Of a stretch of 64,000 nt of DNA, positions 6,681 to 8,349 are shown piece after piece. Each line of letters opens with the position of its first letter. The first letter of the stretch is position 1. Origin of the DNA: Octopus vulgaris. Its lineage: Eukaryota. The position numbers are program-made. The DNA is taken from positions 7,750,001-7,814,000 of the forward strand of contig OX597834.1 of the NCBI GenBank assembly GCA_951406725.2, in the 5' to 3' direction.

Positions 6681-6774
<94 letters not shown>

Positions 6775-8279
6775 ATGAAAGAATGGAGTCGAACGACGAT
6801 TTAACAAAATTCCTTTATTCTCTACACATGTTTCGAAGACTGCATATTCTTAATTCCAAAGGAATAAAGGGTGCATTATGCCGTCTTCTCATCAGGAATG
6901 ACAAGGAACTTATGTCAGCATCATGACGAACAAAAACTTTTAGATGACTGCCCACACGGAGCCCATAGTGATAATGAGTGTTTCTTTAAAATATTCCGTT
7001 ATAAGCAGTGACGTCAAAATTGTTTGGATGGATAAGATTCTAAAAAGTTAAAGAGTTCAAAAATGGTTGGAAGGGGCAAGTTCTAAGAATAGGAGGGTGA
7101 CAGAGTGCAAGACGTATGTATGGTGATGCGTTGTTGTTTGCTTTTGCCAATGAGATTGAGTGCCTATGTGTGTGTATGTATATAACTGCATTCGTGTCTA
7201 TGTGTGTGTATATGTGTGCGTGATAAGGGCAGAAAATATTCTGCCCTTTTGATAAGGGCAGAAAATATTGTGCCGTCTGTAATTCCGAGCTTTTCTATAT
7301 ACTCTTCGCCAAATTCCCTTTGGTAAACACAATGGTAGAAAAATCCTATAGGTGCATGCACTGGCAGAAACACACCTTCCACTCATATGAATGATGATTA
7401 ATATAGATAACCTCCTTGAATTTAATAATTTGGTTCCACATCTACAACAACACCATAGACAAAACTTTTTTTATACTCCGTTACTTGAAGGCCTACTACC
7501 AAATTCGTTGGGGTATGTTCTACCTTTGTCTCTCTACCTCTCCCCCTCTCTCTCTCTACCTCTCCCCCTCTCTCTCTCTCTCTCTCCCTCTCTCTATTAT
7601 AAGCACAATCAAACACACAGAAACAAACCTGTCACTTCACCACTAGTTGTGTTTGGCATTTATCCCCCCCCCACCCAAACAATCACGCACACATATACAC
7701 ACACAGACACGAATGCAGTTATATACATACACACACATAGGCACTCAATCTCATTGGCAAAAGCATACAACAACGCATCACCATACATACGACTTGCACT
7801 CTGTCATCCCCCTATTCTTAGAACTTTCCCCTTCCAACCATTTTTGAACTCTTTAACTTTTTAGAATCTTATCCATCCATACAAGTTTGACGTCACTGCT
7901 TATAACGGAATATTTTAAAGAAACACTAATTATCGCTATGGGCTCCGTGTGGGCAGACATCTAAATGTTTTTGTTCATCATGATGCTGACATAAGTTTCT
8001 TGTCTTTCGTGATGAGAAGACGGCATAATGCACCCTTTATTCCTTCGGAATTAAGAATATGCAGTCTTCGAAACATGTGTCGAGAATAAAGGAATTTTGT
8101 TAAATCGTCGTTCGACTCCATTCTTTCATTTATCTATAGTAAAAAAACACACACATTTCCACACGAAAGCACGTGATTTCTGCCCTTGGCATGTAGCTTC
8201 AACCGTGCTTTCTGACGTAAATTTGCTACCCGAGTATCGGTTAACCGAATTATCCATACTAGGATAATTCATTCAACTA

Positions 8280-8349
<70 letters not shown>

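What the first reader, a model, noticed from the sequence alone, without database searches (positions are those of the whole stretch)
6767..8282. PLE2: near-textbook truncated Penelope-like insertion with a 455-bp inverted pLTR, twin HHRs and an EN peptide missed by the ORF track
Seen: the order is inverted pLTR (6767-7223), EN C-terminus (7245-7394), UTR, pLTR (7682-8137), tail (8138-8282). Each arm has an HHR pointing outward (minus-strand core intact, plus-strand C3 to G). The peptide aligns without gaps to PLE1, so two subfamilies sit ~5 kb apart. This is the best anchor for recovering the autonomous driver of the whole guild.
Basis: partly seen in the sequence, partly recalled or inferred. 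Interest (0 to 1): 0.8.

Follow-up and report, generated by a model that had tools for sequence, protein, structure and literature searches.

The report
Truncated Penelope-like retrotransposon with twin ribozymes
A dead, front-truncated copy of a Penelope-like jumping gene lies head-to-head with a partial mirror copy of itself, each carrying a small self-cutting RNA motif; this is the usual scar such elements leave, so it is real but ordinary.

Summary
Arms 6767-7224 and 7682-8137 are inverted copies (458 columns, 95.9% identical). Between them lie a 49-codon reading frame (7245-7391, stop 7392-7394) and 287 nt of unique sequence. A 145-nt tail (8138-8282) follows the right arm only.

The peptide aligns without gaps to a second remnant at 1549-1695 (28 of 49 identical). 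A profile of the two matches the last ~73 residues of a ~700-aa protein family (hhalign 96.6%, E 5.9e-10). That family's predicted fold is closest to telomerase reverse transcriptase and carries a GIY-YIG nuclease domain.

The motif set, CxxC and CxH around the catalytic E and N, the (TA)n target and the hammerhead motif match the published 'Hydra' clade of Penelope-like elements.

A hammerhead motif sits in each arm, pointing outward. The minus-strand copy keeps every core base; the plus-strand copy has G at C3. Rfam did not detect either.

A 220-bp mini copy at 25856-26075 repeats the same architecture. This is a known kind of insertion scar. No RT-encoding copy from this genome could be sought.

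The parts
6539..6766 (.). TA-rich microsatellite array ending in (GATA)n: left flank and presumed target
   Evidence: TRF array 6539-6773, period 4, 58.8 copies; sequence read
6767..7224 (-). Inverted, 5'-truncated partner copy (arm 1). It equals the reverse complement of 7682-8137 and lacks the tail.
   Evidence: 458 columns, 95.85% identity; 17 differences in 432 unambiguous columns, K2P 0.040
6802..6917 (-). Type I hammerhead motif with all core bases. C3 = 6895, H17 = 6823, with cleavage predicted after 6823 on the minus strand. Helix II is 6 bp plus a long extension; helix III is 2 bp with a 4-nt loop.
   Evidence: descriptor hit; MFE fold -30.1 kcal/mol, z -3.23; pair counts 94% paired with 3 compensatory pairs against PLE1; no Rfam hit
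7221..7269 (+). Junction between arm 1 and the coding remnant: a 20-nt direct duplication (7221-7240 = 7250-7269). The first copy overlaps the arm end by TGAT.
   Evidence: read from the sequence; arm end
7245..7394 (+). C-terminal 49 codons plus stop of a GIY-YIG endonuclease. It keeps CxxC, the catalytic E and N, and CxH. It lacks GIY, YIG, R, H and the whole RT.
   Evidence: hhalign of the PLE1+PLE2 profile against the RT-EN family: 96.6%, E 5.9e-10. PLE2 alone: 84.9%, E 6.5e-6.
7395..7681 (+). Unique 3' untranslated stretch with a (TC)n-type repeat at 7529-7595
   Evidence: no match to PLE1
7682..8137 (+). 3' non-coding region of the direct copy (arm 2)
7987..8102 (+). Hammerhead motif with G at position C3 (8009) and H17 = 8081; predicted inactive
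   Evidence: found only when C3 is left free. C3G abolishes cleavage in another PLE hammerhead (Frangieh et al. 2024).
8138..8282 (+). Tail: 145 nt present only at the direct copy's 3' end; it ends at the (TA)n array
   Evidence: alignment of PLE2, PLE1 and mini copy; blastn; conserved blocks and predicted hairpins without compensatory changes
8283..8346 (.). (TA)32 microsatellite: right flank and presumed target
695..1798 (-). PLE1, a related but distinct family. On the minus strand, in order: a 39-nt inverted piece (1798-1760); an EN remnant (~1759-1549, stop 1548-1546); a 3' region with a hammerhead carrying A at G12 (C3 = 958, H17 = 885); and a tail ending at (TA)n.
25856..26075 (-). Mini copy of the PLE2 family. 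A tail-less inverted arm (26009-26075, matching 8072-8138) is joined to a direct piece (26011-25856, matching 8120-8275), with (TA)n on both sides.
   Evidence: blastn 92-94% identity; sequence; alignment

Best explanation
PLE2 is the scar of one retrotransposition event by a Penelope-like element of the Hydra clade, inserted into a (TA)n microsatellite. It is dead on arrival. It has the last 49 codons of the endonuclease, the 3' untranslated region and the tail, but no reverse transcriptase.

Inferred mechanism: the element's RT-EN protein cut both strands of the TA repeat, and each 3'-OH primed a cDNA on element RNA.
- The rightward-anchored cDNA started at the outer start site (8282) and ran 1.04 kb, as far as codon ~-49.
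- The leftward-anchored cDNA started at an inner start site (equivalent to 8137) and ran 456 nt.
- The two truncated cDNAs were joined at 7221-7251 through short homology.

This gives 456-nt inverted arms and a tail on one side only.

The hammerhead motifs are carried passively in both arms. The minus-strand one could still cleave if transcribed, probably best as a dimer. The plus-strand one is disabled by C3 to G.

Shown: the anatomy, homology, motif integrity and recurrence of the layout.
Inferred: double-strand priming, two start sites, and a single event.
For: Anatomy.

Coding remnant:
- It aligns to PLE1 without gaps at 28/49 identities, with pN 0.24 against a saturated pS of 0.95. The frame therefore evolved as a protein before insertion.
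- Profile search: 143 representatives at E <= 1e-3. [quoted passage not shown]
- P0060 (658 aa) has 2922 relatives at E <= 1e-5, mostly ~700 aa on 2.3-3 kb contigs. Their consensus carries RWK, ADKT and YRDD.
- The AlphaFold model of P0145 has pLDDT 92.5. Its best PDB match is TERT 3du5_A, E 6.9e-9, followed by other RTs.
- GIY-YIG scores above the Pfam cut-off in P0014, P0144, P0200 and P0186.
- Atlas clusters combine HTH_animal, DUF8422, GIY-YIG and RVT_1.

Clade: these motifs, the (TA)n target, short length and canonical HHR are the features given for the Hydra clade in Craig et al. 2021, section 11. That clade includes an Octopus family.

Layout: the combination of 5' truncation, inverted truncated partner and one-sided tail is described as typical for PLEs.

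Mechanism:
- A purified PLE protein cleaves and extends both strands and starts reverse transcription at two internal sites that bound the tail.
- The mini copy shows the same layout, and its tail-less arm ends at the same element position as arm 1.

Hammerhead.
Against: - Rfam found no hammerhead in three searches.
- Pfam found no GIY-YIG in the window peptides. It returned only sub-threshold zinc-finger-like hits.
- The word-indexed search for longer relatives of the PLE2 peptide found nothing.
- RVT_1 was not detected by hmmscan in any of the 48 RT-length relatives scanned. The best sequence match in PDB is a retron RT at only E 0.015.
- No RT, and no full-length copy from this genome, was seen.
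- The tail is 145 nt, against the 30-40 nt given in the literature.
- Only two inverted arms support the 'inner start site'.
- PLE1's inverted piece is an internal, perfectly matching 39 nt that does not begin at the element end. That fits template switching better than double priming.
- The arms differ by 11 transversions and 6 transitions. This is odd for simple decay, so they may not have been identical at birth.
Confidence: 0.78

Rival explanations
1. Same element and same single event, but the inverted arm arose when the reverse transcriptase switched template (from RNA to a second RNA or to nascent cDNA) rather than from priming on both cleaved strands.
For: The junction shows a 20-nt duplication and a 4-nt overlap typical of template jumps. 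PLE1 carries a 39-nt, 100% matching internal inverted piece that does not start at the element end.
Against: A snap-back on nascent cDNA should copy it to its start and so include the tail, yet both arms that reach the element end lack it. In vitro, a PLE protein extends both strands.
Confidence: 0.3
2. Two independent insertions of the same family landed head-to-head in one TA microsatellite.
For: The family targets (TA)n, so repeated hits on one array are plausible. The arms are 95.9% identical, only slightly closer than PLE2 is to the mini copy at 92-94%. The transversion excess between arms is also compatible with this.
Against: All 3 PLE copies in the window have an inverted segment directly at their truncated 5' end, with no target sequence between the halves. 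The literature treats this as one complex insertion.
Confidence: 0.1
3. A non-autonomous inverted-repeat element (foldback or TIR DNA transposon), or a palindrome made by later rearrangement, that merely contains PLE-derived sequence.
For: It has 456-nt terminal inverted repeats. A read-through transcript would fold into a near-perfect hairpin of -852 kcal/mol.
Against: The ends are asymmetric, with a 145-nt tail on one side only. No target-site duplication is discernible. The internal sequence is a retroelement ORF end in frame. The mini copy has a different arm length (66 nt) with the same outer end, which is the mark of variable 5' truncation and not of a fixed TIR.
Confidence: 0.03

Closest known systems
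Hydra clade of C-terminal EN+ Penelope-like elements (Craig, Yushenova, Rodriguez, Arkhipova 2021, PMC8557442; e.g. Hydra-1_Obim of Octopus bimaculoides)
   Same: - CxxC and CxH around the catalytic E and N are visible in the window peptide.
- The relatives show a CxCx5C linker, no CCHH, RWK and DKT motifs, and ~700-aa ORFs on <3 kb units.
- The target is (TA)n.
- A hammerhead lies near the 3' end.

   Different: - This copy is only the last ~1 kb plus an inverted partner.
- The hammerhead has a 54-nt helix II insert, against the short loops tabulated for Hydra families.
- It lies ~200 nt from the 3' end because of a 145-nt tail.
- No RT phylogeny against reference Hydra sequences was run.
Penelope/Poseidon elements, in particular PAc of Anolis (Frangieh et al. 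2024, PMC11167929)
   Same: - AT-rich target.
- Cleavage and extension of both strands.
- Two internal reverse-transcription start sites bounding a tail.
- A hammerhead that is dispensable for insertion in vitro and is killed by C3G.

   Different: - It belongs to a different clade.
- The tail there is 30-40 nt, here 145 nt.
- The mechanism is inferred here and was measured there.
PLE-associated type I hammerhead ribozymes (Cervera and de la Pena 2014, PMC4209133)
   Same: - Short helix III (2 bp) with a small palindromic loop.
- Location in the terminal non-coding region.
- Pairs of motifs on opposite strands a few hundred bases apart in truncated PLEs.

   Different: - The two motifs here are 1.1 kb apart.
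- Helix II is long and branched.
- There is no match to the Rfam hammerhead models.
Animal non-LTR retrozymes (tandem hammerhead repeats thought to derive from PLE terminal regions; bioRxiv 10.64898/2026.07.22.740005)
   Same: A hammerhead-bearing, non-coding PLE-derived sequence that cannot move by itself.
   Different: There is no head-to-tail tandem array here, only an inverted pair, so no unit-length circular RNA is expected.

Membership tests
Penelope-like element (EN+) | Single ORF with a telomerase-like RT and a GIY-YIG endonuclease | tested here: met
   This is met by homology only. The window keeps 49 codons (PLE2) and ~70 codons (PLE1) of the EN end. Their profile aligns to residues 636-708 of a 714-aa family member (hhalign 96.6%, E 5.9e-10). 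That family's model is closest to TERT. GIY-YIG scores above the Pfam cut-off in 4 relatives. RT itself is absent from this copy.
Penelope-like element (EN+) | Pseudo-LTR formed by a partial direct tandem | not testable with these tools
   A 5'-truncated copy cannot show an upstream direct repeat, and none is present. Full-length genomic copies are needed. The listed octopus Hydra family is noted as 'no pLTR'.
Penelope-like element (EN+) | Frequent 5' truncation with an adjacent inverted 5'-truncated copy, and a tail at one end only | tested here: met
   The same layout is seen in the mini copy at 25856-26075. The tail is 145 nt rather than 30-40 nt.
Hydra clade | [quoted passage not shown] | tested here: met
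   Both window peptides show C-x2-C, E, N and C-x-H in that order. The feature is as worded in the main text of Craig et al.; their supplementary figure S7 was not seen.
Hydra clade | No CCHH inside the GIY-YIG core; CxCx5C linker; RWK and DKT motifs | not testable with these tools
   These regions are missing from the truncated window copies. They are present in the relatives retrieved with the window profile.
Hydra clade | Insertion into (TA)n | tested here: met
   TA arrays abut both ends of PLE2, the 3' end of PLE1 and both ends of the mini copy.
Hydra clade | Placement within the Hydra clade in an RT phylogeny | not tested
   No reference Hydra protein sequences were available through the tools, and there is no RT in the window.
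Hammerhead ribozyme, type I | Conserved core (C3 U4 G5 A6 N7 G8 A9, G12 A13 A14, A15.1-U16.1, H17) between three helices | tested here: met
   Met for the minus-strand copy 6802-6917. Not met for the plus-strand copy (G at C3) or for PLE1 (A at G12). Pairing is 94% of cells against at most 51% for slid controls, with 3 compensatory pairs, from only 3 sequences.
Hammerhead ribozyme, type I | Match to a curated Rfam hammerhead model | tested here: not met
   No hammerhead family at gathering score or at E <= 10, even when only 1.5 kb was searched. The long helix II insert is my suggested reason; this is inference.
Hammerhead ribozyme, type I | Self-cleavage | not testable with these tools
   This needs an in vitro transcription assay.
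Non-LTR retrozyme | Head-to-tail tandem repeats, each with a hammerhead | tested here: not met
   No direct repeat of the arm was found in 5500-9500 or elsewhere in the window.

The most novel reading that the evidence does not exclude
In this Hydra-clade family, integration uses two fixed reverse-transcription start sites 145 nt apart, chosen by strand. The copy that becomes the 'direct' element starts at the outer site and keeps the tail. The partner primed on the other cleaved strand always starts at the inner site. PLE2 and the mini copy would then be natural snapshots of double-strand target priming, so far shown only in vitro for one vertebrate Poseidon element, with a tail four times longer than described.
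Probability: 0.3. Interest if true: 0.45.

Novelty: new member of a known kind. Interest (0 to 1): 0.22.

Why it matters
As a single locus it matters little. It is a dead retrotransposon fragment of a clade already described in molluscs and other aquatic invertebrates.

Its uses are practical:
- The 3' 350 nt and the 49-aa peptide are clean probes for annotating this family and finding its autonomous copy in the source genome.
- The arms give an upper bound on insertion age (K2P 0.040).
- The pair of insertions with identical arm ends offers a cheap genomic test of the double-priming, two-start-site model of PLE integration in a clade where no biochemistry exists.
- If transcribed through, the 456-bp hairpin could feed small-RNA pathways.

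Tried and rejected
- Rfam: three searches gave no hammerhead. These were the whole window at gathering score, the whole window at E <= 10 (dominated by microsatellite look-alikes of miRNA models), and 6767-8262 at E <= 10.
- Pfam on the two window peptides returned only sub-threshold KDM6_GATAL and RING_ZNF598 hits. I read these as reflecting the cysteine/histidine pattern, not homology.
- The search for homologous proteins with the PLE2 peptide and lengths 'longer' found no candidate.
- tblastn of all 143 representatives against the window found EN remnants only at 1552-1806 and 7245-7391. Four other weak places come from repeat-derived parts of P0003 and P0101 (E 7e-4 to 5e-3, at 3214-3396, 10232-10432, 24484-24546 and 25969-26169).
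- hmmscan found RVT_1 in 0 of 48 RT-length relatives. The collection's precomputed column does list PF00078 for 3 of the 120 listed.
- phmmer of P0060 against PDB found nothing. The family profile gave a retron RT at E 0.015.
- The idea that the mini copy's inverted arm begins at the hammerhead cleavage site was dropped. The arm runs 4-10 nt past it.
- A fourth hammerhead-like hit at 60664-60711 has U at G12 and is at chance level: the relaxed descriptor hits 15 of 200 simulated windows.
- The consensus fold of the tail gave hairpins but 0 compensatory pairs.

Full report
**What is in the sequence.** The region reads, left to right:
- a TA-rich array ending in (GATA)n (6539-6766);
- arm 1 (6767-7224);
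- a short junction;
- an open frame ending in a stop at 7392-7394;
- 287 nt of unique sequence with a (TC)n-type repeat (7529-7595);
- arm 2 (7682-8137);
- 145 nt of further unique sequence (8138-8282);
- (TA)32 (8283-8346).

The repeat finder reports the arms as 450 nt and 96% complementary. blastn of the region against the window extends them to 458 columns at 95.85%. I left out the first 26 columns, a CA-rich stretch where the alignment is ambiguous. The arms then differ at 17 of 432 positions (6 transitions, 11 transversions), giving K2P 0.040. With those columns included, K2P is 0.050.

The junction holds a 20-nt direct duplication (7221-7240 = 7250-7269). Its first copy overlaps the arm end by four bases (read).

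**The peptide.**
- The + frame 7227-7394 is open.
- From 7245 it aligns to the minus-strand frame 1549-1695 ('PLE1') with 28 of 49 identities, 41 of 49 positives and no gaps.
- At the DNA level the two stretches are 62% identical. Synonymous sites are saturated (pS 0.95) and non-synonymous sites are not (pN 0.24). The frame therefore evolved under protein constraint, and the two copies belong to long-separated lineages rather than subfamilies.
- Pfam does not recognise either peptide, and the word-indexed search for longer relatives found nothing.

**The protein family behind the peptide.**
- A profile of the two peptides, searched against 1.84 billion representatives, found 143 proteins at E <= 1e-3.
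- Those hits that extend upstream share a GIY-YIG-type core (VVY...YIG...R...H). It sits behind a CxCx5C linker and has no cysteines inside the core. After it come CxxC, E, N and CxH. The window peptides align to this last part.
- One hit, P0060 (658 aa), continues upstream into RT-like motifs.
- P0060 has 2922 relatives at E <= 1e-5 among 8000 candidates scored. The 120 listed are mostly about 700 aa, on contigs of 2.3-3 kb.
- The consensus of 82 of them shows RWK, ADKT, a YRDD motif, the CxCx5C linker and the CxxC-E-N-CxH end.

**How well the window peptides fit that family.**
- hhalign places the two-peptide profile on the last 73 residues of this family (probability 96.6%, E 5.9e-10).
- The PLE2 peptide alone gives 84.9%, E 6.5e-6.
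- An AlphaFold model of member P0145, built with this alignment, is confident (mean pLDDT 92.5, pTM 0.89).
- Its best PDB matches are telomerase catalytic subunits and other reverse transcriptases. First is TERT 3du5_A at E 6.9e-9; retron, DRT, group II intron and LINE-1 RTs follow.
- Pfam GIY-YIG passes its curated cut-off in P0014, P0144, P0200 and P0186, and is sub-threshold in several more.

**Results against the homology case.**
- hmmscan found RVT_1 in none of the 48 RT-length relatives scanned.
- By sequence alone, the best PDB match of the family profile is a retron RT at E 0.015.
- The Atlas look-alike clusters combine HTH_animal, DUF8422, GIY-YIG and, in one cluster, RVT_1. Their recorded taxa are Ctenophora, Cnidaria, Mollusca and Arthropoda; this is a lead only.

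**Which clade.** Section 11 of Craig et al. 2021, read in full, defines the 'Hydra' clade of C-terminal EN+ Penelope-like elements by:
- short elements (<3 kb);
- an RWK motif;
- DKT instead of DKG;
- no CCHH in the EN;
- a CxCx5C linker;
- canonical hammerheads;
- insertion into (TA)n.

Every one of these that can be read in the window or in the retrieved relatives is present. [quoted passage not shown] I did not see their supplementary figures S2, S7 and S8, so the motif layout is taken from the main text. No phylogeny was run.

**The hammerheads.** Rfam gave no hammerhead match in three searches. A descriptor of my own found:
- one strict hit in the window, on the minus strand of arm 1 (C3 6895, H17 6823; helix I 3 adjacent bp, helix II 6 bp, helix III 2 bp with a 4-nt loop);
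- the mirror site in arm 2, once C3 is left free (G at 8009, H17 8081);
- the PLE1 site, once G12 is left free (C3 958, H17 885).

None of 200 simulated windows gave a strict hit. The relaxed forms hit 11 and 15 of 200.

Structure support:
- The 122-nt RNAs fold into the expected three-way junction: -30.1 kcal/mol with z -3.23 (arm 1) and -2.33 (arm 2), and -33.2 kcal/mol with z -3.16 for PLE1.
- On the three-sequence alignment, 94% of cells pair, against at most 51% when partners are slid.
- Three pairs in helix II and its extension change on both sides between PLE1 and PLE2. In the shuffle control, 26 of 500 shuffles reach this. There are only three sequences, so this is supportive and not strong.

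A short helix III with a palindromic loop, and pairs of motifs on opposite strands in truncated PLEs, are described by Cervera and de la Pena 2014 (passages). C3G abolished cleavage of another PLE hammerhead (Frangieh et al. 2024, main text read in full). That G12 changes are disabling is recalled, not from a call.

**Other copies in the window.**
- PLE1 (695-1798, minus strand). It has an EN remnant of about 70 codons, a 3' region 67-72% identical to PLE2 over its last 350 nt, the same 3' end next to (TA)n, and a 39-nt, 100% matching inverted piece (1760-1798 against 956-994) directly upstream of the remnant.
- A mini copy (25856-26075). A 66-nt tail-less arm (matching 8072-8138) is joined to a 156-nt direct piece (matching 8120-8275). 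Identity is 92-94%, and (TA)n lies on both sides.

The tail-less arm of the mini copy and arm 1 of PLE2 end at the same element position. All three direct copies end within a few bases of each other. So 3 of 3 copies carry an inverted segment at their truncated 5' end, 3 of 3 direct copies carry the tail, and 2 of 2 arms that reach the element end lack it.

**How it most likely arose.**
- Craig et al. describe 5' truncation, an adjacent inverted 5'-truncated copy and a 30-40-bp tail at one end as typical of PLE insertions.
- Frangieh et al. showed in vitro that a Poseidon protein cleaves and extends both strands of an AT-rich target. It starts reverse transcription at two internal sites whose spacing corresponds to the tail.

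Applied here, both strands of a TA repeat were cut. One cDNA started at 8282 and reached 7245. The other started at the 8137 equivalent and reached the 7682 equivalent. The two were joined with a small duplication.

This step is inference. The tail is 145 nt, not 30-40. The support is two insertions. PLE1's internal inverted piece fits a template switch better.

The excess of transversions between the arms warns that they may not have been identical at birth. Arm divergence therefore gives an upper bound on age.

**What it does now.** Nothing autonomous: it has no RT and lacks the catalytic N-terminal half of the EN. A read-through transcript would fold into a hairpin of about 456 bp (-852 kcal/mol). 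The minus-strand hammerhead could still cut. Both statements are predictions.

**What could not be checked.**
- The source organism is unknown.

So whether an RT-encoding copy of this very family exists in this genome stays open.

The papers found by the two searches hold no description of a 145-nt tail or of strand-specific start sites in Hydra elements. I read only the passages named above. Two searches do not show that it is not in print.

**Verdict.** The finding is real and correctly interpreted. It is a new member of a known kind and of low general interest.

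Noticed in passing
8271-8282 and 8347-8358: The last 12 nt of the tail recur exactly, in inverted orientation, immediately after the (TA)32 run. Two element 3' ends therefore face each other across the microsatellite (2 exact matches in the window; with 1 mismatch allowed, 0.66 matches are expected by chance). This may be a 12-nt abortive insertion from the other side, or a palindrome extension.
   Followed up: partly
1760-1798 and 956-994: PLE1 carries a 39-nt, 100% complementary inverted piece of its own 3' region directly upstream of its EN remnant. 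The piece is internal and ends two bases from the hammerhead C3. It does not fit the double-priming model used for PLE2.
   Followed up: partly
25856-26075: A 220-bp mini copy of the PLE2 family with the same inverted-plus-direct layout, flanked by (TA)n on both sides.
   Followed up: yes
1800-1945, 6410-6549, 28601-28743, 29251-29394: A ~140-nt repeat, 79-89% identical among its 4 copies, each next to a TA/TG microsatellite. One copy abuts PLE1's inverted piece, and another lies just left of the TA array that PLE2 sits in. Its nature was not determined.
   Followed up: partly
1-156, 3300-3575, 5222-5515, 10229-10485, 13259-13551, 25663-25822, 28488-28562, 29524-29581, 30348-30631, 33781-34055, 51543-51700: A SINE-like repeat of about 280 nt, 73-94% identical, in at least 11 places. 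ARAGORN finds no tRNA-like gene in the window. One copy adjoins the (TA)n beside the mini PLE copy.
   Followed up: partly
6767-7224 vs 7682-8137: The arms differ by 11 transversions and 6 transitions, and 5 of the 17 differences touch a CpG. An excess of transversions is unusual for neutral decay. It could reflect reverse-transcriptase errors or two different template RNAs.
   Followed up: no
6738-6773: The (GATA)n run abuts arm 1, whose own terminal bases read as one and a half GATA units. The array may have grown from the element's end by slippage.
   Followed up: no
60664-60711 (minus strand): A hammerhead-like hit to the relaxed descriptor with U at G12. This is at chance level, since 15 of 200 simulated windows give such a hit.
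   Followed up: yes
47510-50426, also 18012-18676 and 40094-40480: Kilobase-long trinucleotide-type low-complexity tracts that stay open in several frames on both strands (ORFs up to 687 aa of M/I/H/S/D runs). They also produce spurious miRNA-model matches.
   Followed up: no
42673-42936 (+) and 58299-58688 (-): By eye, two ORF fragments share a similar peptide stretch and look like remnants of another retroelement family. Pfam gave no hit for either.
   Followed up: partly
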